A stretch of DNA of 60,331 nucleotides, counting the filler, from Sphacelaria rigidula (lineage: Eukaryota), in NCBI GenBank assembly GCA_964200075.2. It is 9 parts of 9 records of this genome, joined end to end, with 100 filler letters (N's around TTAATTAATTAA, not from the genome) between each part and the next. Parts side by side here need not be neighbours in the genome. Positions count along the whole stretch, not along the records: positions 1 to 6,615 come from CAXNAA020019047.1; 8 more parts are not named here. One strand, written 5' to 3'. The notes under the pieces were generated by a model. It was not told where the DNA came from. It did not search any database and worked only from the letters and a program-made list of their open reading frames with translations. The position numbers and the translations under genes were made by a program. Positions 1 through 35,846 of the stretch are shown here, piece after piece (within the stretch, counting starts at the first letter, position 1; the number at the start of each line of letters is the position of its first letter).

Positions 1-63
1 AGGGATGCGAGGTCAATGGTCTGATGACTATGGCAAGCATGATCATGAGTACACCCCCCCCCC
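1..63 (+). repeat. Structured poly(C)-bounded short repeat, subfamily A (5' part cut by window start)
   Basis: AGGGATGCGAGGTCAATGGTCTGATGACTATGGCAAGCATGATCATGAGTAC then a C-run; the same sequence recurs at 642-767, 5751-5872, 19545-19680, 20256-20325, 26683-26760. Confidence 0.85.
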
Positions 64-169
64 TGTTTATGTGTCGCACTTTAAACCCCTCCCCTTGCTC
101 GGGTCGAGTCCGTGGTCTCAAGGGATCAGCCCATATCTCCCAATCTTTCCCCGGTACACTCCTTGCCTT

Positions 170-385
170 TTGTCTCGTGGATTGGGTCAGCAATCTCGCA
201 CCGCGTCAATTTTCGTCGAAAAAACTCAGTCAACTACTTTTATTGTGTACTCACGTACTAACGCTTTCAACGATTGGAATCGGGTAAGTCAAAGAAAAAA
301 CTCAACGCGTCGGGATCCGAACCCTCGTTCTCCCCACCCTAATGGTGACAGTTGGATCATAGACAAATGGGGCTCGATGTACCTC
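170..385 (-). mobile_element. Degenerate tRNA-derived SINE
   Basis: Minus strand has a B-box-like GGTTCGGATCCC followed by a T-run; downstream body (GAAAATTGACGC...) resembles the SINE body at 39665-39730. Confidence 0.45.
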
Positions 386-641
386 ATCTGCAAGGTAAAT
401 AGAACCGTATCGGTATAGTGCGGGGCCCGCACAGTATGGTCATCCCTGACTGGCGATCGTAGATACAAGAGTCATGTCGTACGAACTACGATCGGGGAGA
501 TATGCCATCCCTTGCTCATGTTTCAAGTTTTTTTGTTGCGGTTTGTGGGAGAACGCGTGGTGATCAGAAGATCGGAGGTCCGTTCAGTCGAAAAGGTGAA
601 AATTGAAGACGGGAACAGGCATATACATCAGAGTCATGTAC

Positions 642-767
642 GCTAGGGAGGGGGGAGTTACTCGTGATCATGCATGCCGTAGTCATAAGACCATTGACCT
701 CGCATCCCTACAAAGCCGGGACGGAGCACGCCGGGTTTTCGCCGGACCAGGCGCTAGGGGGGGGAGG
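642..767 (-). repeat. Structured poly(C)-bounded short repeat, full-length subfamily A copy
   Basis: Reverse complement reads CTGGTCCGGCGAAAACCCGGCGTGCTCCGTCCCGGCTTTGTAGGGATGCGAGGTCAATGGTCTTATGACTACGGCATGCATGATCACGAGTA, flanked on both sides by C-run+CCTAGCG. Confidence 0.85.
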
Positions 768-1448
768 GTATCGGGCCGTTTTCTTCCACGAAATTAATAC
801 TTGAACCGTCGTTGAAAGCAGCAACAGTTGTTCGGACTCGCATGCTCCCGATAAATTACGCTCATTAACACTGCTTGATAGCACTTATACCCGAATACAA
901 GCGCACCACGATTGTGTTAGGTCGTTTGACGCACCTATGAGCCCATTTTTTCGTAAAATCAGACCTCCCCTTATCGTAGAATGACTCAGTGGGCGCTCCA
1001 ACGCGCGATCGTCTCTCACGCACCTCATATTCGTCGCTCGTCATGGCTATTCTTCTTTTCTTGCGGAGAGATCTGACTCTAGACACCGAAAGGTTCCACA
1101 CACCTCTAATAGTAAATGCATTGTCAGCGCTATATATTCGAGGGAATCTTGACAATAATCTAAGAAATAAGAACCAACACAATTCGGTCAACGATTGAAA
1201 CTACAGCAGCAGAAGCAGAAGCAGAAGCAAAATTTCCCACGGTGAACCCGCAAGTGCTGTGTGCATTAATACCGATTTTTACGGATGGATTTTGGCTCAA
1301 CCTACGTGTTGTGTGTTGTCATCCCACCTATCCCGGACGCCAGTTTTCATCTCTCGGTATTTGTTGGCGCATCAGCTGGGGTCACACAGGAAGGTTAACA
1401 GAGGATCCTTCAGTTTCTGTTTTGTTGTATAACAGTACTCTATACAAG

Positions 1449-1481
1449 CCGGTCGCCCCGATGGCTCGGTTGGTAGCCTCG
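1449..1481 (+). mobile_element. Truncated 5' head of tRNA-derived SINE (A-box only)
   Basis: GCCGGTCGCCCCGATGGCTCGGTTGGTAGCCTCG matches the head of the SINE at 3109-3198 (-), then stops abruptly. Confidence 0.55.
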
Positions 1482-2929
1482 TATGCATATCCCGAGCTAT
1501 AAACTAAGGCATTTCAGGTATGAACACAGGGGAAGTAAGGCATGCCTTAGCAGTTGCCTGAGGCCGACTATTTTGCCTGAGACGTGCCTTGAACGGTTTG
1601 CCTCAGACCCCCTTTCGGCATGCGTTATTGGTCAGGGCCTACGGGCGATCCTAGAGGCAGTTCTTCCCGAACCAGTTCGATCAGAACTCATCCTCCGCGA
1701 ACTGGTTGCCCGAGAACGGGCTCTGCTCAAACTCGTTCTCTCCGCGGTCTGGTTATCATGCTTACTTACCTCAAGCTCGCAATGCGCGATCAGATCGCCC
1801 GGCTGTCGATCCCAGTAGCCCCATGCGAGGGTCATGGATGCTGACCATAGTGCTCCGCTTAGTCCCTGGACGTGCAGCAAGGAAACATATACGAGACGAT
1901 TTTTCGCTTTTGTTCCTGTCGCGCAAGATGCCCTTAGGACGTCTCACCGACGACGCCGCGCGATAAGACGCAAAGAAAAAAACAAGGCATGTTCTCGTGC
2001 AGGGGAAGCTCTTACATGACAATCTTAAAAGTGGAACGGCGACGAGATATAAAGTACTGTATTTTGTCACCATTTTCGAACCAAGCACAAGTCTCACATG
2101 GCCGTATGTGAACCGGAGGGCTAAGATTTCATGTGACCATCTTTGCAATATTTTTCCCACCCCATTTTTTTTCCGTACTATTTTTTTTTTCGTTTTTTTT
2201 CGTATCGCGTCTGTGTGAAGTTTTCAGACTCCAATTTTCTTTCTGATTTTTGCTCCCCCTGTTTGGGGATAGTTTGCCTGTGAACACGGAATGCGTTCAC
2301 ATTAGATTCCCAGTACAGAGTACTGAGCAGATATCGGAACGGTTTTGTATGTGAAGACAATAACAACAACAACAAGAACGAAAATCTTTAGACCGCGTAC
2401 AGGTCACACATGGTGATGTGTGGAGCGGGCGAAAGTTTGACATGATCATCCTTGAACTGGGCGGTAAGACGCATCACATGCCCATTTTCAAAGCGTTTCA
2501 CGAACGACGATTGCCACGGGGAAAATGACATGTGGGAAATTCTGGACATGTGAACAACTGCCGATCACGCGGACATTCGGTTTAAATTTCATACATGAAG
2601 TATATATTTTCGCCATTCGAGGCAATCGCATGTACCACACATGCTATGGGAGAATGCACGCAGTTGATGATCCGGTTACCGCGTGAGTGAAATATTTGAA
2701 GACCACGCGAGGAAAAGAAAGCTCGTTGTTGTGCACGAGTAGAACCACGCGTGTCGCGTACGTGCTTTACCTGCTGATGAGAACATACACTCTACCTCGC
2801 CTTCTACTTTTAGTGTGTTGTGCGTTGGCCATCCTCTCTAGTCTGGACGCCAGTCTGCACCTTTCAGTATAATATGTGGGCTCATCACTCGGGGTCACGG
2901 AAGAGGAAGACCAACACAGGAGATTTGTC

Positions 2930-3198
2930 TTTTTTTCTTTTTCTTTTCGTGCTCCGCCTTTCTTCTCCGGCGCTCACCATTCATTTTTATCGCGAGAGGG
3001 GTTCAGAGGTTCCTTTCCCTCGTTGATCGTGAAGTTGAATTTTGTGTACCCACGACATGGTCGCTCTCCAAGGTTGGGCATAATAATGTGAGAAAAAAAA
3101 TCATATCGTGTGGCTGCACACGGAGATTCGAATCCGCGACCCAAACGTCAGAAGGGATCGAGGTTACCAACTGAGCCACCGGGTCGACCGGCTCACCA
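2930..3198 (-). mobile_element. tRNA(Arg-like)-derived SINE
   Basis: Minus-strand head has A-box TGGCTCAGTTGG, anticodon-like loop CTTCTGA and B-box GGATTCGAATC. The body (GGAGAGCGACCATGTCGTGGGTACACAAAATTC...GAGGGAAAGG) is shared with 39379-39765. Confidence 0.75.
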
Positions 3199-4856
3199 CG
3201 AAAATATTTTCAGCTGAAGCTACTGTACTATACAAACATGGTCAAGTTTCCGCCTTCCGACAGTTGGGCTCGGACGCAGGTGTTCGAAAGACGAAGACAA
3301 AGCACTGCTAGCGTTATGTCTACCATCTACAACTAACTAGTCACTGTTCCCCAGTATTGACTTGTTGGCTACTTCCTTCGTGGACCCCTCTTTGTCGGAC
3401 ATGTTCCAGCTGTATCGAGGGAATAGATGATGCTGTCTTGTTGTGCCTGGGGCGGTAGGGTAACGTGCGTGGGTGGGCATGCTCTCAAATTCGACCCAAA
3501 ACACACGGGGTGACTTCCATGCACAATTGCTGCTCCGACGGCCACCGTCGGAGCAACATTTTACCGAGAGTGGTGTGCGGTACGTTCGGTCATTTGAAGG
3601 GAGTGAGGTTCCCAGCCCGCTCAGTTCAAGACATCGGCATTTCGGGTGCTTGGTCAGACGGAGTGAACGCTGTGGCTTCAGAACTGCCATGCTGCGACTG
3701 TGACTAACTTGATTTTATACTTTATAACTCCAGCGCCACGGATCGTTTTTTTCAAGGACGTTCGTGACAAGCAGGGCACAGGCGCTTTGAAAAAGCACCT
3801 TGACTCGCAAATACTGACTCGAAGCACGGAGTGATTTTGTGGAGCATGAGAGAGTGCTCTTTGGGTGTTGGTGTTGCGCAGATATTTCACTGTACTTAAA
3901 GATCGAAATAACGTATCTCACCCGATCCGCACGATCTGGGCCCGCATAGGAGTGGATCTGTAGGGTGCAAGCCCAGTCTCACCTCAATTTCGAGGGTTGA
4001 ACTTTCAAATTTGGTATGCGGCATACGAAACAAGTGAGCTTGGGTCACTGAGAATGTATTTGTCCATGCGTTGAGGGCAAAAACAACACCGAGTTTTCAC
4101 TAGAATGTCTTCAAGTAATGGAAAAAGAAAACTCTCAATGACCCCAGGTTACTGTTTTTTTTATGCCCTCATGATTCTCAACTACATTTGAAAACACGAC
4201 TCTCAAAGTTGAGGTGAGAATGGGCGATTCAGAGCCTGATGGGCCGGTCGAGATTCGGAACAGCAGTTTGCACGCTTTTCACCAGTGCGGGCTACGGTAC
4301 GTGTAATGTTGTGTGGAAAATCGATAGGACATAATTTAAAATATTGAAATATCGTACAGTGACTTTGCCATGATGAGGTCAGGGCGTTTGGATGTAATTA
4401 ATAAGACGAAATGAAAGCCCACCATTTCTATAGTTATCAGTACTTCCTTGCGGTTCTCCATACTCATTTTTATTTCACGTTTATTACCAAAGCCTGAGCT
4501 GAGAAGCTGGGTAAAGCGCCAACAACAACGCCCATCTTTCACAAAAACGTCCCTAACTCATGAACAATAAATGCCAAGACCCTGAAAGTTCTCTGTTTGA
4601 TTTACCCTTGTGATACTCCGTACCAATTTACAAGTACAACTCTCAAAGCTGAGAAACGAAACTCAGTCTTCGTTCATTCTAGTTTCCCTGTTCATAATAT
4701 ATTGAATTTACTATAACCCAAAATACCCCTGCCCCCGATCGTAGCATGGCTCAAATATGGACATGTGAAACAGGCGTGTGTAACATGGTCATGTCAAAAG
4801 ACCTGGGTACAGTAGCTACGTCGAGGATGACGCAGGGGGGAACCTAAGTGATCTCG

Positions 4857-5091
4857 GAGCAATGCTACGGTAGGAGTGCACGTTTTGCGCAAAATCTTGT
4901 CTGGTTCGGGGGTTCCAAACGATTCTAGATGTACAAGAATATGGGTGAGAGCATATCCCCGTTTGCAAATATATTCGGGTAGTCCTGGCGTACTCTCATA
5001 TGGTTAATAAGTCGTGTTTTGCATGAGATAAAGGGCTCCCAAGAATTCCAACCTCTGAAAAAAATGGTACGCCCCTACCGTAGCATTACTC
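4857..5091. mobile_element. MITE, Sola2-like (GAG..CTC termini, 4-bp TSD)
   Basis: TIR GAGCAATGCTACGGTAGG / CCTACCGTAGCATTACTC; TSD CTCG at 4853-4856 and 5092-5095. Confidence 0.8.
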
Positions 5092-5306
5092 CTCGCCCGT
5101 TCACCGGATGACCATCTTCGAGCAGGACGGCAAAACGTGAAGATCTCGTGAGACATGGTTGCACTGCGCGCACGTCTCAGGTTATGATCATCTTCGAACC
5201 AGACGGCAACATGTAAAACCTCACGCATCATGCATCGCTGCCCAAGGCAACACTGTTACATGACAATTGCCGAAGGGGATCAGGAGCATGGCTACGTAAA
5301 ACAGAC

Positions 5307-5561
5307 GAGGGATGCTACGGTAGGGGTGCACAAATAGATTCTGAGATTTGAACTGTTCGGAGCCTTTTATCTAATCCAGAACACCACTTATGAAATATGT
5401 GAGGGTACGCCATGATTACTACTCCAATGTGCTAGGGATGTCCCAAATGAATTTGCAAACGGGGTGCCCTGACCCATGTTCTTGTGCATCTAGAATCCTT
5501 AGGAGCTCCTGAACCAGACAAGATTTCGAGCAAAAAGTGCACCCCTACCGTAGCATTGCTC
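5307..5561. mobile_element. MITE, same Sola2-like family
   Basis: TIR GAGGGATGCTACGGTAGGGGTGCAC / GTGCACCCCTACCGTAGCATTGCTC; flanks AGAC/ACAC (one mismatch). Confidence 0.75.
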
Positions 5562-5750
5562 ACACATGTAATGCCAGGCATGTGAAACGCCATGCTAAAC
5601 CTGTCGCGAGTGGCGCAAGCAGGAGTTTATCTGATCAGAAGCAGCCAGTTGCCATATTCGCCGCAACAACGCCCTTGTTTGGAGGATGGCCTGATATGTG
5701 TGACAACTAATATATTGCATCCAAGAGGACCGATGAAATTTCCTCCAGGA

Positions 5751-5905
5751 GCCCCCCCCCCCCCCCTGGTCCGGCGAAAACCCGGCGTGCTCCGTCCCTA
5801 CTCTTTTTGTAGGGATGCGACATAAACGGTCATATGACTACGGGACACAACATCATGAGTACCCCCCCCCCCGCAAGGATGCGTCGTCAATGGTCAAACG
5901 ACCCC
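5751..5905 (+). repeat. Structured poly(C)-bounded repeat (subfamily A) followed by a partial subfamily-B copy
   Basis: C-run, CTGGTCCGGCGAAAACCCGGCGTGCTCCGTCCCTAC...GTAGGGATG...CATGAGTAC, C-run, then GGATGCGTCGTCAATGGTCAAACGAC. Confidence 0.8.
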
Positions 5906-6527
5906 CAGGGCCCGCTTTTTCGGGCAAAACGGGGATTTCTCACAGTTGGTTATTTTGTTATTCTAGCTCGAAGACGGATTTTCACAGTTGCTTACAGTCA
6001 GAAACATGATTCCTGGTAGGCCATACAGTACCCAGGCACCAAAATCCTTGTACATAAATATTCGAGGGTTGGGGGGTATACGTAACTCCCACAAATGTTT
6101 CCAAACTATAACAAGGGATTCCTCCAACGTCGTGCAATGCCCGAGCATGATGTTTCCCTTATTATGAATAAAAAGCCGTTTTGACTGCGATATACATAGT
6201 GAATATTAATTCAGCGGCATGCGTGCCCCTCCACCCATACAAGCTCAGGTTGCCGCAATCATGAGAGCCAGGGCACGGAGTGCGATCGAGGTTTTTTTAT
6301 CAGTTCGTTGATGTTTTTTCGCACCCCGGTGTGATGACTCCGATAGGTGCGTTGACTCGGAGGTTACTTCACCGCTTGGTAGGCGTAGAATTTTCTCTTA
6401 AAATCATTATTTCGAATAATTTCGGAGGCATACCAAGAACCCTTGGGCAAGGGCGGTATAAAAGTGTATATACCGCAGGAGTGGTAGTTTTACACCATGA
6501 TGTGAGAGGACGGTATACCGTTGCAGC

Positions 6528-6615
6528 TTAACCCTAAGACCGCGAGGTTAGTCTTCTGTTGAATCGGCATCAACTTCAAGTGAAAAAAGTATGCATGATC
6601 CAGAAAGACTAATCT
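6528..6615 (+). mobile_element. piggyBac-like non-autonomous element end, cut by contig end
   Basis: TTAA|CCCTAAGACCGCGAGG; homologous to the end at 24025-24110 (...CCTCGCGGCCAAAGGG|TTAA). Confidence 0.55.
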
Positions 6616-6715
6616 NNNNNNNNNNNNNNNNNNNNNNNNNNNNNNNNNNNNNNNNNNNNTTAATTAATTAANNNNNNNNNNNNNNNNNNNNNNNNNNNNN
6701 NNNNNNNNNNNNNNN
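6616..6715. other. Artificial contig linker (N44-TTAATTAATTAA-N44)
   Basis: Identical 100-bp spacers also at 13331-13430, 20046-20145, 26761-26860, 33476-33575, 40190-40289, 46904-47003, 53618-53717. Confidence 0.98.
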
Positions 6716-7042
6716 TTCAAGCCTAAAACAGTGCTTTCCCCACACTTTCAGCGATGGTGCCCAATGACGTTTTTGTCGGCCTATTGCCCCTTGATCGCGT
6801 GGACACTTCTTCAGCTCGATTCGCCGACTCCGTGAGTCTACAGCTCTGAGCGAAACCGTAATTTTCCCTGATATCACCCCCCTCAAAAAGGGGGGAAATG
6901 ACGGTCAGCGCTGTAAGCTCGCAGAGTCGGTGAATTGCGCTGAAGAAGTATCTACGCGATCGAGGGGAAAAAGGCCGACAAAAACGTCATTGGGCACCAT
7001 CGCTGAAAGTGTGGGGGAAGCACTGTTTTGGGCTTGAACCTC
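6716..7042. mobile_element. Foldback MITE with ~130-bp TIRs at the 5' end of the copia gag region
   Basis: TTCAAGCCTAAAACAGTGCTTTCCCCACACTTTCAGCGATGGTGCCCAATGACG... is inverted at ...CGTCATTGGGCACCATCGCTGAAAGTGTGGGGGAAGCACTGTTTTGGGCTTGAA. Confidence 0.85.
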
Positions 7043-7082: not shown

Positions 7083-10000
7083 GTGGAAATTTATGATGAC
7101 GTGGATGAAGTTCAAGATGTTAAACCAAGTACGATTCCACGACTCACGTCAAGATCAACTCAACTTCACACCCGCTCCAAAGGACTTCCACTACGTTCAT
7201 CTGAAGGGGAAGCGGATACAAGTGTACAAGATCAGGATCCTGCTGTTGGAGAGGCGGATCATTTCGGCGGTGAAGCGGATCCTACCGTTGGTGAGGAGGA
7301 TCCTGCTGATGACGTAGAGGATACCTCCCGTCACCTTACTCATGTAAGAAATGTGGTAAATGTTGAAAAAATCGAAAACTGGGACCGCTGTAACGAACAG
7401 TTGTTTAATATTTTATATTTGACAACTACAGGCCCAGCTAGTAGCTACCTCCTCCGGTACGGGCCGAAGGGTCTGCAAAACCCTAACGGCAAAATCGCAT
7501 GGGAAGCTCTGGTAGCGAAGAACGAGAATTCTTCCAAGCAGAGGCGGCGCATACTGATCCGCCAGCTAGATAACACCAAAATGTCTCCTGGACAAGACCC
7601 AGACGAGTTTTTGATCAAAATTATTAAACTTCGTGATCAGCTTGTCTACATGGGTGAACCTATCTCCGATGAAAGACTGACGGACATTGTGGTTGAGGGT
7701 CTGACTGATGATTACGACCGCATCAAATATGATGCTGAGCGTGACCTCTGATATTGAAGTCACGCTGCGGAACATATATGCAAATCGACTTGCACGCGGA
7801 ATTTTGGGAAACAAGGGGTTACGTGATCGTGAATCAGCCATGGTCGCGGCTTTGCCGTCTGACTCATCATTGACATCATCAAAGTTTACGGGAAAATGTC
7901 ACTCGTGTTGAAAATTAGGCCACCATATCAGAGACTGCCGATCCAGACAACAACCAAACAGCAGGAACAGATCGGTTAAGTGGTGCAGCCTTCATCGTAC
8001 TGATAAACATGACAATACCGAGTGCAAGAGCCGAATGAACAATGGAAATACGGCAAGGAGTCACAGCCATCATGGTAGAAACAGCGATCGTCGTCGACAA
8101 AACACCCGCCACAACAACAGCCGCAGCAGTAGCTCCAACAACCACTCTGGCTTCAGTGCGACCAACATCACCAATCAACAGAACCAGGCAAATGCTGTCA
8201 CCGTGAACCCTACGACAACCGACACGTCGACAGCTGTATCCTACAATCATCAGGCTCAAGAATTCAGCGGTAAATCAGCTTCGACGGTGACTGACGCGTG
8301 CCCATCACCAGGTGCTTTGGGCTTTTCGTTTCTTGCTGGTCCTGATCGTAAGGATAGTATTAAGGAGCCTGTGTCTATATCATTTAAGATGGCGTGTGTT
8401 CAGGCGAAACATTTCACTACCTGGACAACGAGCTCCTACCAGAACTCGAACACTATATGACCAGCCACGTTAAGTTGGATCCCCCAATGCAGATCCTCAC
8501 TGCTGGAGGTCATCAAATTTGCGGAACTGGGAAAGGAGTGCTCCTGTCCATAGTGAAAGATCAGCAGGGAAATGAGCATACCGTCCGGCTCCCAGCCATC
8601 GTCGTTCCGGGGTTGGGAAAGCATATATTTTCTCCTGTTTACGAATTACGAACAAAGGGGATCGGAACAACTTTTGGTGTCAATTCCTACTCTGTTGATC
8701 TTGGACAGTTTAGAGTACCACTTCGCCCTGATGACAACAGCTTGCTCCACTACATCGACATGAAGATCATCCGGAATTACAAACCCGTCGACTCAAGAAC
8801 CGGGTCAGTACCAGCGGCTGAGGTGGTGTCCGGAGAACATATGAGCATGGGGACAGCTTTAACTTCTATGACGGTTGCGGGAAACGCTTCAGCTTTTTCT
8901 ACCACTGTGACTGCAGGAGTTTGGCATCGGAGGCTGAGTCATCCCGCGGAGCCAGCGATGTGTCGGGTTATAAATATTCCCGAAACAGGTGTGAAATTTA
9001 CGGCGTCACTTTCCTTTTGTGACACCTGCATGACAAATACAAGCACCCAGAAGAATCATCCAAAACCTTCGACTCTTCGTCAGTGACAGAACGTCTGCAA
9101 CTGGTAACTACCGACCTCTCGGGTCCATTCTCACCGACTGTATCAGGTGGTTACAAGTACATGGCGAAGTTCACCGACCACTACAGTCGACTAAAAGTTG
9201 TATACTTCTTCAAGGCAAAAAGTGAGGCGCTCTCTACGTTTGTCCAGTACATCGAAGACGTGGCGATTCCCTTAGGACTTAGGGTACACCGCCTACGGTC
9301 AGATCGTGGGGGTGAATACATTGCAGACTACTTTCGTCGGTATTGCAAGACGACAGGTATCCTTCAGGAATTCAGTTCCCCACATTCACCTCAGCAAAAC
9401 GGCATGAGTGAGAGGGATGGGGGAACAATTTAGAATATTACTCGTTGCCTTCTGAACGAGGCAGGATTACCCAAATTTCTTTGGGGGGAAATAGCTGCCA
9501 CTTCCGTATTTTTGATGAATCGTTTACCACATCGGAGCATCAACGGAGAAACTCCGTACTACAGGATGTTTGGTAAACAGGCGAATCTAGCATTTCTACG
9601 CATCATAGGATCACGGGCGTCCGTGCACAAGGAGGGGCACATTAACAAGCTGGAGGATAAAGCTTGGGAAGGCGTTCTGATTAGATATGATGATGATAGT
9701 CCTACGTATCGGATTTACGATAGGTATTCCGGAAAAATCTACAGTTCCAGAAATGTTATCTTTATCGAACAAGCAGACGGGGCAACAAACCTGCGGACGG
9801 ACTCAACTCCAACTGCTTCGGGGGAAAATATTAACATGCAACACCTTCATCACGATCAACAAGTCGAAGACTAACTTCATCATGATCAAGACTACCTGCA
9901 ACAAGACAACATGGATTTCAACAACAACGTCTTTGATGGCATTTCACAGCTGGACCGCGGCGACAGCTCAACCACATCTACTCATCCTATGCGACTCCGC

Positions 10001-11745
10001 TCCGCCGGCACTGCGGCCAGCACTACTTCATCTCCTACCAACCAAGGTCAATCCCGAGAACTCCAAAAACTAGCTTTGGTGATCGAAGCTCCGCGGAATT
10101 CATCCATGGCATTGGAACCAGTTTCAAACTATATTGGGACAGTCGGGATCGACAGTGTTGTGCCCCCTGCATCCATCTCCGTCCCGAATAATTATAAACG
10201 GGCCTCTTCCTCACCATATGCCTCAAAGTGGAAAGCAGCCATGCTCGATGAGCTCCGCAGTATCAAAGACCATCGCGTGGCTGACATAATAATAATCAGC
10301 TGGAGCAGTCCCACCAAACAACAACATAATTGGCACGCGATGGGTATATAAAGTCAAGGCGGATGGACGCTTCAAGGCAAGACTCGTTGTTCAAGGCTGG
10401 GCACAACGACACGGCTGCGATTGCGGCAGCACTTTTGCACCGGTCTGCCGACTCGAACGTCAGCGAATTCTTCTCGCGATTGCCACTGCAAAAAACTGGC
10501 CAGTAAGTGCGCTTGATGTCCAGACAGCCTTTCTAAATGAAAACTGAAGGAAACAGTATTTTGCAAACAACCACCGGGCTTCGAGACTACGGACCCTGCT
10601 ACCGGACAACCTCATGTAATGCGCCTGTCTAGAGCGATTTATGGTCTCAGGCAATCTCCTAACGTCTGGAACTTCACCATCGACTCCGAATTGAGGAAAC
10701 TGGGATTTACTGCGACAGCGAGCGACCCTTGCGTCCACACGAGAGAACAAAATGACAAGTATGTCATGCTCACGTTATCCGTCGATGACATTCTCCTAAC
10801 CGGACCCTTTATCAAGCTTCTACAAGAATTTCAAGACACGCTCAACAATAAATTTGCTATTTCGGATCCGGGACCCGTTTCCCTCATCCTGGGTATGGAA
10901 GTCTCGAGGGATACAGAGCGTGGAACGTTGAAACTGTCACAGCATAACTACGTCATCTCCTTACTTCAAAAGTTCAATATGGAATCCTGCAACTCGGTAC
11001 ACACGCCTGGGGTCACCAATAATATCTTACCAGACTCGGAGGAACATCTCCTAGATCAGCAAGGTATAAAGAAGTACCAAGCTATGGTGGGTAGTTTGAT
11101 TTTCCTGCCTCAGTGTACGAGATTCGACATCGCCTTCAGCGTTACCCAGGTTTCCCGCTACATTAGTAAGCCTACGACACAGCATTTAGCGGCTGTGAAA
11201 CGCATTTTCCGCTATCTATAAGGAACTCCGGACCTGCCCATCGTCTACCGCTCTTCCGGCAACAATTTGGATCAGCGAGGCTTTTGCGATAGCTCCTACG
11301 GCAACAGTGGCATCGGAGGAAAAATGAAATCTTCAACTGGAACCATGTTTTTCTATCTAACGGAATAGTGCATTTTTCTTCAAGCCTACAACGGATAACA
11401 GCTACTTCTACTACAGAGGCCGAACTCATAGCCCTGGCGAGAGGAGGAAAGTTCGGTACCTACCTGTTTAATCTTCTGCGAGAGCTCGGGTGGTCGTCTA
11501 TTCGGCCTCCAATCACCTTCTCCGATTACCAGGGAGCTCTCCATTTTTCTTCAAATGCGAACTACCGAAACGGAAGTAAACATCTCGCGATTTGTTTTTT
11601 CAGCTTGAAGGACCTCATCACCAACGGCAAGATTACCATTAACTACATCAGAACTACCGCGCAACTGGCTGATGTACTCACCAAACATTGCAAGAGGACA
11701 ACCCATCACCGACTTCTGGACGCAGTCATGAGTTTTGGAAAGTAA
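7083..11745 (+). pseudogene. copia gag-pol polyprotein with several stops and frameshifts
   Basis: gag (AWEALVAK...QDPDEF); zinc knuckle CHSC*KLGHHIRDC; pre-integrase WHRRLSH...CDTC; integrase TDLSGP/LRSDRGGEY/PQQNGMSER; RT FKARLV/LDVQTAFLN/IYGLRQSP/SVDD; RNase H STTEAE/KHLAI/QLADVLTK. Confidence 0.95.
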
Positions 11746-13330: not shown

Positions 13331-15042
13331 NNNNNNNNNNNNNNNNNNNNNNNNNNNNNNNNNNNNNNNNNNNNTTAATTAATTAANNNNNNNNNNNNNN
13401 NNNNNNNNNNNNNNNNNNNNNNNNNNNNNNGATCATGAGTCCCCCCCTCCCCCCCCCCCGCAAATACGTGATCACGCGGGTGGAGAGTCTCTAAACACAC
13501 GAACGCACCGATTTAATATATGAGCATCAAAGCTTTTTGTCTCAGACCCCTCGTTTCTCCCCACCCGGGGATGAAATCATTATATCCTCTCCCCAAACAC
13601 GATGACGGGTATTGTCTATCGTTGTGGCAAGTTACATGGGCATTTTCACATGTATGGCGATCTCCCATAACATACGGGAGGCATCGTTAAAGCGTATCCA
13701 CGCTATCCCACCACTTCACGACCTGTTCTTTTCCCCACTCCCATCCCCGAGGACACAATCAATGCATCTCCTTCCCGAACAATCTCAGCGGGAAGGGGGT
13801 GTTATCCGACGTTTTTGAGCCATTTTGCGGCCGAACAATTAATCTCAACACGTGAGAGGTAAATTTACCGATAGAAAGCTGTGTAGTGTCATCTTCCTTT
13901 TTTATTCACGGGACCACAGACACCCCGGGGAAGATATTGTTTCATCCCTCCCGAAGATCGATACCAATCCGAAACCTACAGTTTGATACACCTTTTCCAT
14001 ATCACAAGACTATGGACACCGGGGGACTGGTATTGCTCCATCCTCTCCATAGCGAGCGAGTTCCATGGTCTTGAGACTACGGTATGCACCCCCTTCTCCC
14101 CCCTCCTCCTCCTCCTCCTCCTCCTCCCAAGTACGCGCTGGGGTTATAATCTACCGTCAGGGCCTGTAGAATACAAATGCCGATACCCCTGAACACGCGA
14201 GTGATCACTAGAACGTATTCATCGTACTTGCTGATTTGAGTTCATCCTTGCCCCTTTCCCCGACGATGAGATGAGCGTATCTCTTCCGCAAACACCGTCA
14301 CCCGGGGGTTTCATTTGCCGTATTAGTCGTTTGCGATCGGGCTACATGATGGTTCCGAGCGCATGAGAGGTATCATGAAAACATCGGCACCCTCACTATG
14401 TGCCCCCTAGGATAGTCAGGAGCATCACCGTCCGTTTGCCACCGGACAAAACGGTAGATACCACCCCCGGGGACGATTGTTTTCCCATTGTTGGAAACGT
14501 CCATGGGCCCAACCTCCACATGAGACATCACCAATGCCTTGAGAATGTTTTTCTACGCAGTCGTGCGTGCCATGCACTCCATTTTCGACTCTCAAGGTTT
14601 TAAATGTACTGAAACTGCTGAAGAAAAGCTAGGCAACGTGAGCCGGCAAGTGGTCTGAATTGGAGTGACTTGGTCAGAACCCGTCGGTCCAAGTGCTGAA
14701 ACTTCATATGGCGTTTGCGAAGTCAAGCTTCACCCGATTCGGCCGCAACTGTTTTTTAAGCCGTCGCTACTTCGATAGCGTGGATGCGACTTCCAGGTTG
14801 CCTATTTCCACAACGTGTCTTGGAAACCCCGAATTGGTAATCTCGAGTGTAAAATGGTGTTTTCCACTGACGAAAGAGTTACTATCGCAAAAGGCACCTC
14901 GACTCTGGCGTCTCCACACAATTCCCAGTTGCTCGATGTAGTTTTTCTCGATTTTCGTCAGGATCGGTCACGCGAAACTTTGGTTATGTCCCAAAGTGGC
15001 ATACTATCACAAACAAAGTTGTCTTGCGGACCGGTTGGATTT

Positions 15043-15195
15043 GGGGGAGGAGGAGGGTGTACTCGATGATCTTGCATGCCGTAGTCATGTGACCGTTGAA
15101 TGGGGGAGGGGAGGGGGGGGGGGTGTACTCATTTGTTGCTTGCCTTGATCGTTTGACCATTGACCACGCATCCCTTTCGAGACGGAGCATCCAAG
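15043..15195 (-). repeat. Tandem pair of structured poly(C) repeats (partial subfamily A plus subfamily B)
   Basis: Subfamily B reads TGCTCCGTCTCGAAAGGGATGCGTGGTCAATGGTCAAACGATCAAGGCAAGCAACAAATGAGTACA+C-run on the minus strand. Confidence 0.8.
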
Positions 15196-15296
15196 CGAGG
15201 GAAAGAAGACGTCCACGTCCCCATCCGCAGTGTCCCGAAATTGCAGTTATCTGGTATCGAGATCTTTCGCTGAACGAGGTATTTTATTGACAGTTA

Positions 15297-19544: not shown

Positions 19545-19680
19545 GGGGGGTGGGGGGTGTACTCATGATCTTGCGTGCCATAGGCATATGACCGTTGACC
19601 TCGCATCCCTACAAAGCCGGGAAGGAGCACGCTGGGTTCTCGCCGGACCGGGGTAGGGGGTGGGGGGTGGGTAGGGGGGA
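19545..19680 (-). repeat. Structured poly(C)-bounded repeat, full-length subfamily A
   Basis: Near match to 642-767, with G-runs on both sides on the + strand. Confidence 0.85.
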
Positions 19681-19934: not shown

Positions 19935-20255
19935 GTAAGTTATTCTGGAGAAGGGGGAGGGGGGGGGGGGGGGGGGCAATTCTTTTTTTATTTCTTGGGG
20001 CTTTGGGCATGGGGCCCGCCCGCTCTTTTCGGGCGGCGCCCGCTCNNNNNNNNNNNNNNNNNNNNNNNNNNNNNNNNNNNNNNNNNNNNTTAATTAATTA
20101 ANNNNNNNNNNNNNNNNNNNNNNNNNNNNNNNNNNNNNNNNNNNNGGGGGAAAAATATTAGCAGGATGCAGCTCACCCCTCCTGCGACTTGCCGAACACA
20201 CCACGGCGCTTCGCGCTTGGTGATTGAGTGCGCGCCTGGTCTGATGAGTATGGCT

Positions 20256-20325
20256 CATCCCGGCTTTGTAGGGATGCGAGGTCAATGGTCTTATGACTAT
20301 GGCATGCATGATCTTGAGCATACCC
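20256..20325 (+). repeat. Structured repeat, subfamily A, in an SPT6 intron
   Basis: CATCCCGGCTTTGTAGGGATGCGAGGTCAATGGTCTTATGACTATGGCATGCATGATCTTGAGCAT. Confidence 0.8.
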
Positions 20326-20343
20326 TCATCCACCCCGGGATAC

Positions 20344-21631
20344 CTTGTTGCTCGCGAGGAGATCATCCACCAAGTCGTTACACGCCGCCACCCTTCTGGA
20401 GATAATTTCATCCAAATCCTCGTATTCCTCTCCTTTGATTTTAAGGCGAGGGGCGAGCATGGCCCCCTGCGGCTTATCCAGCTCCTGTTCTCCAAATGCA
20501 CCGAACACGCACACACACATGGAGGGACAGGGAGGAGTGCAGAATATCGTGAATACTCGAAAAGCCCCAATCAAACTCGAGAAAAAAAAAAAGCCAAGAA
20601 GCATGTATATATGAGGACTTTCTTCAATCTGAACTAGTACACAGTACGACACTCGACTACAGACGGAACAGAGAAGAAATAGTTATAAATCACAGTCATA
20701 CACAGTCAGGACAAATCATCACGACTCAAAATCACCGAATTCACGATTTCTTCGGCCTGATTACCCAAGAGGTAGAGAAAAGTTGATTGCTGGTGCAAGG
20801 GGTATCCGCGCAACTTTTGCGCCATTCCACGTGTCTGGACTGCGTGTGCCTGGGTTGCAACGCTGAAAACAAAGCCTAGGGATTTTTTCATCACGAGTCG
20901 ACTCATTACGCTAAAACCGAGTAATTTCCAGACGAATCATTATTTGTCCAACTCTTGCAATCATGCAAGTAATGAAAATTGAAGATATAAAAATATGATA
21001 GTATCAATACCTACGTGAACATGACTGGCACGGTAAGGTCAAGCGTGAAACCCGTTTTGCCGTCTGTTTTTTAGCAAGCCGTGCCTGTTTTTTTTGTAGA
21101 CAGAACTCAACCGAGCAACGACGTACCGGTACACCATCAACGATAAAGGTAACGGTACCCGAATTAAAATACACGCATGGATCCCATCGCTACGCTTGTC
21201 GAGAGCGACCACAAAAATGAGACAACAATCTACACACGTGCCACGACAAAAACACAGAAGGGGGGGAAGTACAAGTATATCATACCTGAATATCTGTGTG
21301 CATGAACTCCCCCTCCATCCACATCCACGTGAGGGACAAATGGTCAGACCCCTTGCTGGAAGGACGGATTAACGCCTCCCCTCGCCCATCACTAGTCTGA
21401 AAAGTATCAACACAACGGCAGACGGAGGAGGAATGTTGAGGGGGAAATGGAAAGGAAACAACGAGACAGAGAGAAAACAAAATAGGGGAGGGGGGGGCGT
21501 ACTCATTTGTTGCTTGCCTTAGTCGTTTGACTATTGACCACGCATCCCTTTCGAGACGGNNNNNNNNNNGGGGGGCGTGGAAGAGTTGAGTGGGGGGGCG
21601 GACCGGGTCGCGGAGGAGACAGGTGGGCAAA

Positions 21632-21666
<35 letters not shown>

Positions 21667-24600: not shown

Positions 24601-25916
24601 TGTCGCTCTTTCTGAGCGACAGCTTGAGCTCGAACCTTGCCTTGTCTACCTTGATGATGGCGGCCTCCTTGAGTTGGTTCTTCTTCACCACAGTATTCAG
24701 GTTGGCCACCTGATGCACGCGGCGGCGGCGGGGAGGAAGGAATAATTCGCGAAGTCCACGAAAAGTATCTTGATGTCTGTATCGGATTGATTGATGCCAC
24801 AACATGCACGAACCATCGAGATGTATCCTGTCTCACGGCGAAGATCGTTGCGATAAGGGCGGGGAAAGACCGGACCTGAAAGGCCCAGTCCCGCATCTAT
24901 TTGTGAAAGCTCGTGACCCGCGATAGCCACGTGTGCCATCCTCCAGAACTCGAGACTACGGTAGAGGTCGGAGACATACACCGGATCACTGCTCCGTCTA
25001 CCCTACAGCGTGCCATCGTTCTGCACTCAACTCTCGGGGTAGACCTGGCACACTTCGAGCGTGTTTTCATCTCGCACGCATGTTATGAACTGTACTTCCG
25101 ACACTTTCTGCGATAGCCCCCTTCCGAAATGTAGCTGGTTTTGGGATATAACATTTTCACTTGAATCGAAGGAAGCAATGAAGGAAGCCGAGCACAACGA
25201 GCCCATGTGAAGTGTTGAACGCAGCCTGAAACCAAACATCAGGCGCGGTATGACAATTTTCTTCGTGACAGTTTTGGGCAATTTTTTTTTTGGGGGGGGN
25301 NNNNNNNNGACGTGGTATAACAAATATCTTTTGGAAGGTGTAGGGCGAGTTTGTTGGGGGGGGGGGGGGGGGAAAGCTATCGTAGAAAGTGTCTTCCTTT
25401 GAAGCTACCTCTGTACTGTTGCTCCTGTTGCTGCTGCTACAACGTACATACAATTCCATTGATCAGGAGGTTCCTGAAAACAACGACTTTCCCCTCCTTC
25501 AACTTTGAATCGACAACATTTGGAATTTGAACCGTCATAACTTTCGGATCGTTTCTCATCGAATGATGGGAACACATTTGTGCAAAGTCACATATAACGT
25601 GCTCAGCTGATGAGTAGCCACGCCTTTTTCTCCAAACAATGACACGTGCCACTACGTAACGCACACGACGGTCATCGTTTCTCATATTTGTTGCGTCATC
25701 AGTCCGCTCCGTGGCGGCGTAAGCCACCGAAACCCTTGTAATTAGATGCATGCAATTTTTCTTGCACTGTACCTGCCCTGTAATGGGGTCATTAGGAAGC
25801 ACATCGTCGGTGACGTAGTCGGTGGGGACGAACCCGAACAACCCCGGGCCGCCTTCCAGCTTCACCTTGACTCCGTGCTCGTTATGCCTCAACACGCGGA
25901 CGGGCACAAGCACACC
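20344..25916 (-). CDS. SPT6: Transcription elongation factor SPT6, partial (S1 domain and first SH2 domain). Exons 25773-25916, 24581-24709, 22561-22704, 21977-22105, 21286-21396, 20344-20484
   Basis: GT-AG exons splice in frame to give S1-like GVKVKLEGG..GFV, RTIMHPQYKNF..AEKYL, GEALIRPSSKGSDHLSLTW and LKIKGEEYEDLDEII. Confidence 0.92.
21484..21559 (-). repeat. Structured poly(C) repeat, subfamily B
   Basis: Minus strand CCGTCTCGAAAGGGATGCGTGGTCAATAGTCAAACGACTAAGGCAAGCAACAAATGAGTACG+C-run. Confidence 0.8.
23800..24110. mobile_element. piggyBac-like MITE (left boundary approximate)
   Basis: Ends in GGG|TTAA; internal inverted repeat 23865-23902 / 24027-24066; homologous to 6528-6615. Confidence 0.5.
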
Positions 25917-26682: not shown

Positions 26683-26760
26683 GGGGAGGGAAGAGGGGGG
26701 GTGTACTCATGATCATGCATGCCATAGTCAGAACACAATTGACCTCGCATCCCTACAAAG
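26683..26760 (-). repeat. Structured poly(C) repeat, subfamily A, cut by contig end
   Basis: G-run GTACTCATGATCATGCATGCCATAGTC...TTGACCTCGCATCCCTACAAAG. Confidence 0.8.
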
Positions 26761-26962
26761 NNNNNNNNNNNNNNNNNNNNNNNNNNNNNNNNNNNNNNNN
26801 NNNNTTAATTAATTAANNNNNNNNNNNNNNNNNNNNNNNNNNNNNNNNNNNNNNNNNNNNTCCAGAGTGTGTGCACTGGGGTCCCTAGCAGTCAACTCCA
26901 AACATAGCCACCAGGCTATACCCCACCCTTTCTCTTTTTGGGCCAATTTTATATGATGGCAG

Positions 26963-33405: not shown

Positions 33406-33461
<56 letters not shown>

Positions 33462-33810
33462 ACGCGGTCCCGACCNNNNNNNNNNNNNNNNNNNNNNNNN
33501 NNNNNNNNNNNNNNNNNNNTTAATTAATTAANNNNNNNNNNNNNNNNNNNNNNNNNNNNNNNNNNNNNNNNNNNNGGAGTAGTTATCGCGGGGTTACCAA
33601 ATATCAACAGCCGGGGCAAACACCTCGCGGTATCAACGTGAGCACAAGAAAAAACAAGCGCCCCGAAAAACGTTCCGGAGAAGGTATCGAATCAAACGGA
33701 ACGACGCCAACGCCCCGGCGCGATCGGCAACATGCGTTATAGCTTTGGCGGGTCATACAGGTACGTGCCGCATACAAAGAACGGGTCTGTGAGCAGAAGT
33801 TGCACCTCAC

Positions 33811-35846
33811 CTCCATACACACGGCGATGACTCCAACGCACTCGCCGTCGGGGGTCATGAGCAAATCCGTGGCGAAGTACTCGATGAAGTACCTGCAACG
33901 GAAGCACACGCGCGCGCATCGTAACATAAGAACCTTCCTATGAATACGTGGATGCGTGAAACACTACATACACGAGAAGGAAGACCTCAGCGCCTCAGAA
34001 CCACCACGCTTGGAGCAACCGAGTTTTTTTTGTGGAATATTTTACAATGTCTTTGTATTGTCGTTTTCTGGCTTTTTACTCAAGAACACCAATGCAATAC
34101 AGCAATGCGGACGGCAAACCAGCATAGCTTCCAAAACATCTCCCCAACTCAATCTCACGTGGTGTCGAAAGCCAAAGATCGGCCGTAGAGGGTGTGGAGC
34201 ATGGCGTGACCAGTGCGATCGGCAGCCGCCGCGCAGCGATACGCTTGCCCTCCCTTCCCGTAGTGCAGAGACTGTCCGCCAAACGCTCGTTGGTAAATCT
34301 TGCCGTCCTCTGTTCGAGAGAACGGTAGACCATACGACTCAAGCTCGAGCACCTGTACAATATTTTCATATCCACAATCAAATGGGTACGTGTGTAGAGT
34401 GGTCGATATCGGCAATGCCCCGCGATATGCGGGGCGCTCCACAACGGCATGTGTGATCTTTCAGCATTATGTGACTCGGCTACTACACCTGCTCGATGAT
34501 ATACATCGAGCATACAGCGGGGGATGAAGGGGGGGGAGGGGGGGCAAGAAGGAAGCAAAAAGCAGGCTCTGGGTGGTACGCGTAGCCTCACCGCGCGCGG
34601 GGCCTCTCGACACATGTAGTGGATAGCATCTTGATCCCCGAGCCAGTCTGAACCTTTCACGGTATCGTACATGTGCCACCTATGGGGAAGAAAGAAAGAA
34701 TCGGTAGGGAGGCATAACAAAACATGCGGGACAAAATGTGCAATATTTCACAGCAAGGAAAGCGTGATGTTAATCGGGGCGGCAAGCGACCGATAGGCAG
34801 CGACCTCCATCCATCCCACCCCGGGTGAACACAAACGTAAATAAGTTTTTCAAGTGGCGCTCCAAAACAAAAGGCAATACAACCGTTCAAAGTCGAGCGG
34901 AGGGTGAATGTTGGGAATCGCATGTGACGACCCGCAGCAACGGCACATCATCTGACGCGTGTTATCGTCTCTGTTGAAACTCGCAAACTTTTCACACTGT
35001 GATCGACCGAGAGGAGACGTGCTTCGTTCATGATTGCAAGATACGATAGCCATGCGGACTACTCACGCTAGGGACCGTCGAAATAATAGTACCGCCAATT
35101 TGCGACGTGGGACAAATCACACCGCGTGGTCTTGAGAAAAAAAAAGTGCGGAAAAAGACAAAAATATTCCATCACAAGTGACCTGGTGGCAGTTGTGCGC
35201 GTAAAAAAGTGTAACTCTCCCCAACAACAACAACAACAACAGAGGAGCTGGCGGCAGTTGTGCGTGTGAATAAGAAAAAAAAACCAACTGGCGTCTCAAA
35301 GAATGCGTTGCGTGCATTAGATGCGGCTAAGTCACGTCGTCTTTCACAACCCTACGTGAGGGCTGCGGGAAAGAGAGAGACAACCCCCCCAGGAAATACA
35401 TTGCAGTGAAAAAAAAAAAAAGCAGCCGCAACCCGCTTCGGAGGAATAGATGGGGACAGCAGCTATTGATAGAACACATCATTCTTAAACGTAGCCTGGA
35501 CCAGAAAGAGCTGGTTAATATCGCCCCGTCCCGCGATCGTAGTAAACATTCGAGAATACTGGCCGAAAAGACGTGAATACGACCCCTGCCCTCCCCCCCC
35601 TCTCCTTCCCTCCCCTGCCCCACTGAAACACGCATTACCCCCCCTCCCAAGAAACCCACCGCCAGTCATCCTCCGTCATGTTCCCCAAGGCTGCGTTGAT
35701 GCCTCCCTGCGCTGCTACAGTATGCGAGCGCGTGGGGAAGAGCTTCGTGATGCACGCGGTTTTCAGTCCCGCCTCCGCGCACCCCATTGCCGCGCGAAGG
35801 CCGGCCCCTCCAGCTCCGACGACAACGGCATCGTATTCGTGATCCA
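33811..35846 (-). CDS. SDHA: Succinate dehydrogenase flavoprotein subunit, mitochondrial, partial. Exons 35660-35846, 34592-34679, 34159-34352, 33811-33892
   Basis: [32 protein letters not shown] (covalent FAD histidine), [46 protein letters not shown]. Confidence 0.97.

What the first reader, a model, noticed from the sequence alone, without database searches (positions are those of the whole stretch)
642..767. Abundant poly(C)-bounded ~100-nt repeat with a conserved multibranch fold: candidate structured-RNA mobile element
Seen: about ten copies or fragments (1-63, 642-767, 5751-5905, 13431-13460, 15043-15195 x2, 19545-19680, 20256-20325, 21484-21559, 26683-26760) on three unrelated contigs, in two subfamilies. 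On the C-tailed strand the same helices recur: closing stem (G)TGCTC/GAGTA(C), hairpin CGTCCC/GGGATG and hairpin TGGTC-N4-GACTA. The loops differ freely (GGCTTTGTA, GAAA, extended TAC..GTA) while the stems are mostly kept by pairing-preserving changes: CGTCTC/GGGATG, CATCCC/GGGATG, TGGTC/GATCA, TAGTC/GACTA, GCTC/GAGC. The consensus non-Watson-Crick pairs are G-U on this strand and would be A-C on the other; the 19545 copy has some true mismatches. There is no TIR, no clear B-box and no poly(A); C-runs bound the element instead. Inference: a SINE-like or ribozyme-like element derived from a structured RNA, which either has a poly(C) tail or targets C-runs. I cannot match it to a family I know.
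Basis: partly seen in the sequence, partly recalled or inferred. Interest (0 to 1): 0.75.

Follow-up and report, generated by a model that had tools for sequence, protein, structure and literature searches.

The report
Brown-algal LINE tails with poly(C) ends
The repeat is real, but it is the 3' end of a poly(C)-tailed retrotransposon (an RTE-X-type LINE) and of short parasitic copies that borrow that end, a kind of element already catalogued in the brown alga Ectocarpus, so it is ordinary and not a new structured-RNA element.

Summary
The repeat is real. There are 11-12 copies or fragments in 3 of the window's 9 joined pieces, in two subfamilies, each ending in ...GAGTAC(A/G) followed by a C-run.

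Subfamily 2 is the last 21 codons, the stop codon and 4-5 nt of a 1,328-1,360-aa endonuclease + reverse-transcriptase ORF. That ORF was found in six contigs from elsewhere, and its named relatives come from Ectocarpus and Sphacelaria. Subfamily 1 keeps the same ~75-nt tail, but a longer loop breaks the reading frame and the upstream sequence is unrelated. It is therefore a non-autonomous, SINE-like rider.

Four features fit target-primed reverse transcription into C-runs:
- a 5'-truncation series;
- a 14-16-nt C-rich target-site duplication at 642-767;
- insertion of copies into older tails;
- very high abundance.

The 2025 Ectocarpus TE catalogue (PMC12477816, supplement) lists exactly this kind: RTE-X LINEs with "(C)n 3'" and "C-rich" TSDs, plus non-autonomous RTEX-N1/N2.

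The proposed three-helix fold is possible, and the stems are conserved. However, it shows no covariation (0 of 17 pairs) and no unusual stability. No Rfam family, ribozyme or tRNA-like head was found.

Verdict: a new member of a known kind, of low interest.

The parts
641..765 (-). Subfamily-1 (non-autonomous) copy, the finding itself. The body is about 657-752. It is flanked by a C-rich target-site duplication of 14-16 nt, T-C run-TAGCG, at 641-656 and 752-765. It is 5'-truncated relative to most genomic copies.
   Evidence: Read directly; nhmmer self hit; cmsearch 651-730, E 1.4e-11; loose ends at 750-752.
1..63 (+). Subfamily-1 3' part, cut by the start of the piece, with a C10 tail at 54-63.
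5752..5872 (+). Subfamily-1 copy (body 5767-5866) between a C15 run (5752-5766) and its C11 tail (5862-5872). Hairpin 1 is extended.
5874..5904 (+). Short fragment of the LINE-type tail, inserted right behind the tail of the previous copy.
   Evidence: E 1.1; E 0.65. A weak match, read by eye.
13431..13459 (+). Last ~10 nt of a copy plus its C-run, at the start of a piece.
   Evidence: By eye only.
14021..14106 (+). Degenerate copy ending in a C/CT-rich run.
   Evidence: nhmmer E 0.0013; cmsearch E 0.96.
15113..15209 (-). Subfamily 2: a heavily 5'-truncated LINE 3' end. It holds the last 22-26 codons of the EN-RT ORF (15132-15209), the stop, GTACA, and a C11 tail (15113-15123).
   Evidence: tblastn with P0003/P0011; cmsearch E 1e-24.
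15043..15099 (-). 5'-truncated subfamily-1 copy sitting in the C-rich tail of the 15113-15209 copy (tandem arrangement).
19545..19680 (-). Subfamily-1 copy (body about 19555-19650) between C-rich runs. Several stem mismatches.
20205..20327 (+). Subfamily-1 variant that keeps the longer 5' region seen in most genomic copies. The start of the piece at 20146 hides its true 5' end.
   Evidence: agreement with the loose-end consensus.
21488..21559 (-). Subfamily 2: LINE 3' end cut by the scaffold gap at 21560-21569, with a C8 tail.
26683..26760 (-). Subfamily-1 3' part, cut by the end of the piece.

Best explanation
The repeat is the 3'-terminal ~75-nt module plus poly(C) tail of an APE-type non-LTR retrotransposon of brown algae, most likely of the RTE-X group.

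Subfamily 2 copies are dead-on-arrival, heavily 5'-truncated copies of the LINE itself. Their module is the last 21 codons of the single endonuclease-reverse-transcriptase ORF, then the stop codon, GTAC(A/G) and (C)n.

Subfamily 1 is a very abundant non-autonomous (SINE-like, RTEX-N-type) element. It carries the same module, no longer in frame, behind an unrelated 5' body.

Inferred mechanism. The element RNA, read through into its genomic C-run, is bound at the 3' module by the LINE protein. The endonuclease nicks at a C/G-run. The G-run of the nicked strand pairs with the poly(C) tail and primes reverse transcription (TPRT). This gives C-rich target-site duplications, frequent 5' truncation, and new insertions into older tails.

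Shown here: the module-ORF identity, the tails, the truncation series, one TSD, the nesting, the abundance, and extra conservation of the module.

Inferred only: binding of the module by the RT, any role for the fold, priming on the G-run, and the clade name.
For: 1. A pattern scan of metagenome contigs gave 5 loci, 3 of which carry the module. A protein-guided scan of genome contigs gave 3 more. In all 6 the module ends a conserved ORF and is followed by a C-rich run, with at least 7 consecutive C in 5 of 6.
2. The 148-aa ORF end (P0001) has a Cys-His knuckle. It matched 20 longer proteins at E <= 0.001, of which I fetched seven. Six of them (P0002, P0003, P0009, P0011, P0012, P0014) end in ...NGAPS..(13 residues)..ASNK, and P0017 stops about 35 residues earlier. 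P0003 (1,360 aa) and P0011 (1,328 aa) carry Exo_endo_phos + RVT_1. Named hits are Ectocarpus sp. and Sphacelaria rigidula.
3. tblastn of P0003/P0011 against the window hits only the last 18-26 residues, at the two subfamily-2 copies.
4. Truncated copies keep the tail end and lose the other end. A 14-16-nt C-rich TSD flanks 642-767. Fragments sit in older tails at 5874 and 15043.
5. Between the two subfamily consensuses, 1 of 34 stem columns differs against 9 of 29 unpaired columns (Fisher p 0.004), or 20 of 41 with loop 1 included (p 5e-6).
6. In 15 of 15 locus pairs the 68-nt module is less diverged than the ~350-376 nt of ORF upstream.
7. Summed contig depth over the element is 4.18 million in X3, against about 46 in single-copy bins. 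138 contigs show the canonical end followed by a long homopolymer run.
8. PMC12477816, supplementary file 1, lists RTEX-1_Ec32 'single EN-RT ORF; (C)n 3'', TSD 'C-rich'; RTEX-2 '(C)n termini/TSD'; RTEX-N1 (607 bp, 'can be present in tandem'); and RTEX-N2 (188 bp, 'could be SINE'), which share the 3' 60-100 bp. In that table the RTE and CRE LINEs have (CAA)n and (CA)n tails.
Against: - The clade name rests on the catalogue's description and on Ectocarpus protein relatives. I could not compare sequence with the RTEX_Ec32 consensuses, which are not held, and I built no RT tree.
- No autonomous LINE and no full-length non-autonomous copy lies in the window. The 5' head, promoter and true length of subfamily 1 are therefore unknown.
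- Only one clean TSD was read.
- The fold has no covariation and no thermodynamic excess. Recognition could be by sequence, not by structure.
- Stem conservation in the LINE copies is confounded by coding constraint.
- The six outside loci come from MAG or metagenome contigs whose organism I infer, not know.
- Summed contig depth is not a copy number.
Confidence: 0.85

Rival explanations
1. Subfamily 1 is not a short non-autonomous element. It would be the 3' UTR end of a second, autonomous LINE family related to the first, seen here only as 5'-truncated copies.
For: Most genomic copies run on 5' of the ~100-nt unit. The window never shows a 5' end of the long form. Ectocarpus has several RTE-X families with similar tails.
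Against: tblastn with two full-length ORFs finds nothing upstream of any subfamily-1 copy, including ~110 nt at 20146-20260. Abundance far above that of the LINE-type tail fits a short rider. The Ectocarpus counterpart of highest copy number is non-autonomous.
Confidence: 0.12
2. One reading: this is a mobile element derived from a cellular structured RNA or carrying a ribozyme. Its multibranch fold would be the functional core.
For: The same three helices can be drawn in both subfamilies. 91.5% of pair cells are standard pairs, against 28-62% when partners are slid. The stems are more conserved than the loops. The G-U pairs are strand-specific.
Against: The module is the coding end of a LINE ORF. 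No Rfam family was found at gathering over the whole window, nor at E <= 10 in 1-6615, 20146-20400 and three loci. ARAGORN found 0 tRNAs. 0 of 17 pairs covary and the score equals the shuffle mean. z-scores run from -1.84 to +1.31.
Confidence: 0.03
3. A DNA-level element (MITE or Helitron end), or a satellite seeded by slippage at C-runs.
For: C-runs on both sides; some tandem arrangement.
Against: No terminal inverted repeats. Truncation is one-sided, always keeping the tail end. The element is continuous with an EN-RT ORF. The copies are dispersed on separate contigs.
Confidence: 0.02

Closest known systems
RTE-X LINEs of Ectocarpus (RTEX-1_Ec32, RTEX-2_Ec32), listed in PMC12477816, supplementary file 1
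   Same: Single EN-RT ORF, (C)n 3' tail and C-rich TSDs in a brown-algal host. Ectocarpus proteins share the same ORF end.
   Different: Another species. Sequence identity to the curated consensuses was not measured. The catalogue does not mention that the ORF runs to within ~5 nt of the tail, nor any 3' fold, in the rows and passages I read.
RTEX-N1_Ec32 (607 bp) and RTEX-N2_Ec32 (188 bp), non-autonomous elements from the same source
   Same: Head of unknown origin, 60-100 bp of 3' end shared with the autonomous RTE-X, C-rich TSD, tandem occurrence, and the highest copy number in the genome.
   Different: The full length and head of the window's subfamily 1 are unknown. The copies seen are ~100-130 nt and mostly 5'-truncated.
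Stringent-type LINE/SINE pairs, in which the LINE protein recognises a 3' stem-loop shared with its SINE (zebrafish LINEs, PMC4176376; only the start of the abstract was seen, in the listing)
   Same: A LINE and a short rider share a conserved 3' module next to a simple-repeat tail. The stems are better conserved than the loops.
   Different: Recognition is untested here. The module overlaps coding sequence instead of lying in a 3' UTR. The tail is a C homopolymer.
L1/Alu-type priming on a homopolymer tail (recalled textbook knowledge, not from a call)
   Same: A homopolymer tail that can pair with the nicked target, so targets and TSDs are rich in the tail's base, and old tails attract new insertions.
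   Different: C instead of A. The tail must be templated from the genome or made by slippage, not by polyadenylation.

Membership tests
APE-type non-LTR retrotransposon (LINE) and its truncated copies | ORF with an N-terminal AP-like endonuclease and a reverse transcriptase | tested here: met
   P0003 and P0011: Exo_endo_phos E 3e-12 / 8e-15, RVT_1 E 1e-30 / 2e-32. Their C-termini equal the module's translation.
APE-type non-LTR retrotransposon (LINE) and its truncated copies | 3' ends kept, variable 5' truncation, simple-repeat tail, target-site duplication | tested here: met
   Truncation series and tails. One 14-16-nt TSD read at 641-656 / 752-765. Other TSDs are blurred by the C-runs.
RTE-X clade | RT phylogeny grouping with the Repbase RTEX references | not testable with these tools
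   No Repbase/Dfam protein set is held. The name is inferred from PMC12477816.
RTE-X clade | As curated in Ectocarpus: single EN-RT ORF, (C)n 3' tail, C-rich TSD | tested here: met
   compared with the supplement rows.
RTE-X clade | Nucleotide similarity of the tail to the RTEX-1/2/N1/N2_Ec32 consensuses | not testable with these tools
   The consensus sequences are not in the held supplements (0 of 5 files hold the motifs).
SINE in the strict sense | Head derived from tRNA, 5S, 7SL or snRNA, with an internal pol III promoter | tested here: inconclusive
   ARAGORN found 0 genes. No Rfam match in the window or at 20146-20400. However, the true 5' head is not in the window.
SINE in the strict sense | 3' tail shared with a partner LINE | tested here: met
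   Subfamily 1 versus the LINE tail: 33 of 34 stem columns identical; cmsearch E 1e-11 to 4e-9.
Small self-cleaving ribozymes or other Rfam structured RNAs | Match to a curated covariance model | tested here: not met
   0 matches at gathering. Nothing on the element at E <= 10.
Conserved structured RNA element | Compensatory base changes above background | tested here: not met
   11 copies (10 distinct rows counted): 0 of 17 pairs changed on both sides; covariation score 0.082 against a shuffle mean of 0.081.

The most novel reading that the evidence does not exclude
The last 21 codons of the brown-algal RTE-X ORF would double as the cis-acting 3' recognition signal, a small three-way junction next to a poly(C) primer-pairing tail. 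The hyper-abundant rider family would have captured exactly this coding segment, keeping the stems while losing the reading frame. That would make it a case of overlapping protein code and RNA signal at the very end of a LINE that has no 3' UTR.
Probability: 0.4. Interest if true: 0.4.

Novelty: new member of a known kind. Interest (0 to 1): 0.2.

Why it matters
The main use is annotation. This repeat, and probably many of the long C/G runs that break the assembly at piece ends and gaps, can be masked as RTE-X and RTEX-N-type elements. It does not need to be treated as an unknown RNA.

Two modest points may interest transposon specialists. The LINE has essentially no 3' UTR, so its presumed recognition module lies inside the ORF end. 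The C-homopolymer tail gives a natural test of tail-to-target priming with a base other than A.

Tried and rejected
- Whole genome: not held, so no genome-wide copy set, no full-length consensus and no empty sites.
- Records behind L002, L003 and L005: not held, so the rest of those LINE copies could not be read.
- Viral contigs: 344 pattern matches, none confirmed.
- Rfam: nothing. tRNA scan: nothing.
- Literature by sequence strings: one unrelated paper. The search 'poly c tail' + SINE + non-LTR listed no paper holding the phrase among the 20 shown.
- MAFFT alignment A3 misplaced the 5' stems because the loops differ in length, so I used a model-guided alignment instead.
- First pair count, on all 17 model hits (A5): 4 pairs with changes on both sides, and 0 of 500 shuffles as high. 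I set this aside because 6 of the 17 rows are truncated or degenerate copies that the model force-aligned (window 20252-20328, 4-59, 26696-26764, 15052-15109, 5882-5904, 14021-14106). I repeated the count on the 11 hits with E <= 1e-8.
- Expression: no RNA holder is listed. Runs X8 and X9 are only guessed to be RNA. They hold the element inside longer contigs, and a 99-nt stretch (1768-1866) inside ~2-kb contigs. I draw no conclusion on transcription, strand or RNA ends.
- Bins without cover in X8/X9: not interpreted.
- Hammerhead idea: rejected. The CTGATGAG in the 20232 copy has no GAAA or helix III partner by eye, and there is no Rfam hit.
- Earlier findings of this scan: none returned.

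Full report
**What the window is.** The 60,331 bases are nine pieces of about 6,615 nt taken from different contigs. They are joined by N runs around a short ttaattaattaa marker, and the fourth piece holds two further scaffold gaps. The DNA is eukaryotic:
- Copia gag, pre-integrase and RT fragments lie at 7083-11221.
- A short succinate-dehydrogenase exon has its best named hits in Ectocarpus.
- Public runs that hold piece 1 are labelled with one coded organism or as 'algae metagenome'.

No whole genome is held for the window.

**The observation.** I searched with the copy at 636-790. nhmmer found 10 hits at E <= 0.0013, itself included, and two weaker ones. A covariance model built later found 11 window hits at E <= 1. 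All lie in pieces 1, 3 and 4.

Read on the C-tailed strand, the copies end in GAGTAC(A/G) followed by a C-run. There are two subfamilies. Subfamily 1 has a 9-nt or longer first loop (642-767, 19545-19680, 5752-5872, 20232-20327, 26683-26760, 1-63, 15043-15099). Subfamily 2 has a GAAA loop (15113-15209, 21488-21559, fragment 5874-5904).

Copies that are incomplete keep the tail end and lack the other end. Two fragments sit directly in the C-rich tail of an upstream copy (5874 behind 5767-5872; 15043-15099 behind 15113-15209). The copy of the finding is flanked by a near-perfect duplication of 14-16 nt, T-C run-TAGCG, at 641-656 and 752-765.

**Abundance and true length.** I laid the contigs of four public runs on piece 1. 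In DNA run X3 the summed depth in the bin that holds the element was 4,183,382, against 45-50 in single-copy bins (3316-3757, 5968-6409). In X4 it was 2,059,398 against about 13. This sum is not a copy number, but it marks a very high-copy repeat; 72,358 contigs of X3 were laid on the piece.

At positions 750-752, 97 + 107 + 719 contigs of X3 run on into sequence unlike the window's flank. That sequence agrees with the longer 5' region kept by the copy at 20232. The ~100-nt units are therefore mostly 5'-truncated forms of a longer element. At the other end, 138 contigs of X3 show the canonical end followed by a long homopolymer run.

**What the module is.** An exact-pattern scan of metagenome contigs with a 21-nt core gave five loci, and three of them (L002, L003, L005) carry the whole subfamily-2 module. 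In these three the sequence upstream is conserved (93% mean column identity) and open. In L002 a frame of 148 codons contains a Cys-His knuckle and ends at the TGA that sits five bases before the C-run.

This protein end (P0001) matched 20 longer proteins at E <= 0.001. I fetched seven. Six of them (P0002, P0003, P0009, P0011, P0012, P0014) end in ...NGAPS..(13 residues)..ASNK, and P0017 stops about 35 residues earlier. Two are full-length, at 1,360 and 1,328 residues, with an AP-type endonuclease domain followed by a reverse transcriptase. Named members are from Ectocarpus sp. CCAP 1310/34 and Sphacelaria rigidula.

A protein-guided scan of the prokaryote genome collection found three more copies on MAG contigs (L006-L008). 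They have the same ORF end and C-rich runs. In all, a C-rich run follows the module in 6 of 6 loci, with at least 7 consecutive C in 5 of 6.

tblastn of the two full-length proteins against the window hits only their last 18-26 residues, at the two subfamily-2 copies. So subfamily 2 is simply the extreme 3' end of 5'-truncated LINE copies. The 'structured module' is the last 21 codons, the stop and 4-5 nt.

Subfamily 1 has the same module with a longer loop that shifts the frame, and the sequence upstream is unrelated to the LINE ORF. It is a non-autonomous element that carries the LINE's tail.

**Comparison with what is in print.** For the Ectocarpus TE catalogue (PMC12477816) I read passages of the main text, part 1 of supplementary file 1, and term searches of the five held supplements. 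It lists:
- RTEX-1_Ec32: 'single EN-RT ORF; (C)n 3'', 5,867 bp, TSD 'C-rich'.
- RTEX-2_Ec32: '(C)n termini/TSD'.
- RTEX-N1_Ec32, non-autonomous: 607 bp, head unknown, 'can be present in tandem', 60 bp of 3' end 83% identical to RTEX-1/2.
- RTEX-N2_Ec32, non-autonomous: 188 bp, 'could be SINE'.

The main text calls RTEX-N1 the most abundant family of that genome and gives RTE-X 16,418 copies. The other LINE groups in the table have (CAA)n or (CA)n tails.

The window's elements fit this description point for point, and Ectocarpus proteins share the ORF end. I could not align the nucleotide sequences, because the consensus library is not among the held supplements. I built no RT tree, so the clade name is inferred. 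Supplements that I could not see (the library itself) would settle it.

**The fold.** The three helices can be drawn in both subfamilies, and the minimum-energy fold of the LINE-type copies reproduces them. Their stability is ordinary: z-scores of the seven C-strand folds range from -1.84 to +1.31, and for the LINE-type copies 36 of 200 shuffles fold as well.

The count on all 17 hits looked positive. It was driven by six truncated or degenerate rows that the model had force-aligned, so I dropped them by asking for E <= 1e-8. On the remaining 11 copies, 10 of them distinct:
- 91.5% of 165 cells pair.
- No pair changes on both sides.
- 8 cells show a one-sided change that keeps pairing, against 14 unpaired cells.
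- The covariation score (0.082) equals the shuffle mean (0.081; 411 of 500 shuffles at least as high).

This is what decaying copies of a few masters would give, so it neither proves nor excludes a fold.

Two other results do point to constraint on the module itself:
- Between the consensuses of the two subfamilies, 1 of 34 stem columns differs, against 9 of 29 unpaired columns outside loop 1 (p 0.004), or 20 of 41 with loop 1.
- Among the six outside LINE copies, the 68-nt module is less diverged than the ORF upstream in 15 of 15 pairs, for example 0.029 against 0.10 and 0.088 against 0.21. These pairs are not independent.

**Mechanism.** *Shown:* continuity of the module with an EN-RT ORF, the C tail, one-sided truncation, a C-rich TSD, insertion into older tails, very high abundance, and extra conservation of the module.

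*Inferred, from the established model of target-primed reverse transcription and of LINE/SINE pairs that share a 3' tail (PMC4176376; only the start of the abstract was seen):*
- The LINE protein binds the terminal module of its own RNA and of the rider's.
- It nicks at a C/G run.
- The G-run of the nicked strand pairs with the poly(C) tail and primes cDNA synthesis.

Each new tail is a new target, which explains the tandem and nested copies and the C-runs on both sides. How the tail is kept long is open; it could be read-through of the genomic run or slippage.

**Verdict.** The element is a new member, in another brown alga, of a kind already catalogued in Ectocarpus. The structured-RNA or ribozyme reading finds no support.

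What may be new is small. The recognition module appears to lie inside the end of the ORF, with no 3' UTR, and the rider has kept its stems while losing the frame.

Noticed in passing
window 6616-6715, 13331-13430, 20046-20145, 26761-26860, 33476-33575, 40190-40289, 46904-47003, 53618-53717: 100-nt spacers (N runs around ttaattaattaa) join nine unrelated ~6.6-kb pieces. The repeat finder reports them as 100%-identical direct and inverted repeats (families D1, I3-I25), which are artefacts of the joining.
   Followed up: yes
window 4856-5092, 5307-5561, 28258-28518: MITE-like elements of ~235-260 bp with 25-31-nt terminal inverted repeats (GAGCAATGCTACGGTAGG...). Summed contig depth there is 1e5-2.7e5 in run X3, so this is another high-copy family.
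   Followed up: partly
window 33407-33459, 21633-21660, 19959-19976, 25356-25372, 55436-55451, 60264-60279: Long C or G homopolymers (53, 28, 18, 17, 16 and 16 nt) with no recognisable element end upstream. They may be tails of other RTE-X families, tail-only insertions, or expanded target runs. Several copies and C/G runs abut piece ends or scaffold gaps, which suggests they break the assembly.
   Followed up: partly
window 7083-11221 (+): Copia-type LTR retrotransposon fragments: gag (Retrotran_gag_2), gag-pre-integrase, and RVT_2 at E 1e-27.
   Followed up: no
window 2874-3315 and 6410-6615: Further very high-copy repeats, with summed depth of 2.7e5-5.4e5 in X3 against ~46 for single copy. 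Not identified.
   Followed up: no
window 1768-1866: A 99-nt stretch matches, with 0 differences, the middle of ~2.0-2.3-kb contigs in runs X8 and X9, which are only guessed to be RNA. It looks like an exon of a spliced transcript.
   Followed up: no
window 34076-34720 (-): Contains a short exon of the succinate dehydrogenase flavoprotein subunit. The best named hits are Ectocarpus SDH1.
   Followed up: partly
window 46209-46752, 47004-47603, 48331-48773, 6716-7038: Local tandem repeats (period ~190-200 nt; a 231-nt pair 369 nt apart) and long inverted repeats (204-nt arms at 85%; 137-nt arms at 88%) of unknown nature.
   Followed up: no
L006, L007, L008 (MAG contigs) and protein P0005: Brown-algal LINE copies sit on contigs filed as bacterial MAGs (uncultured bacterium, Sulfitobacter, Verrucomicrobiales, Parasphingorhabdus). 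These are probably eukaryotic contigs binned by mistake.
   Followed up: no
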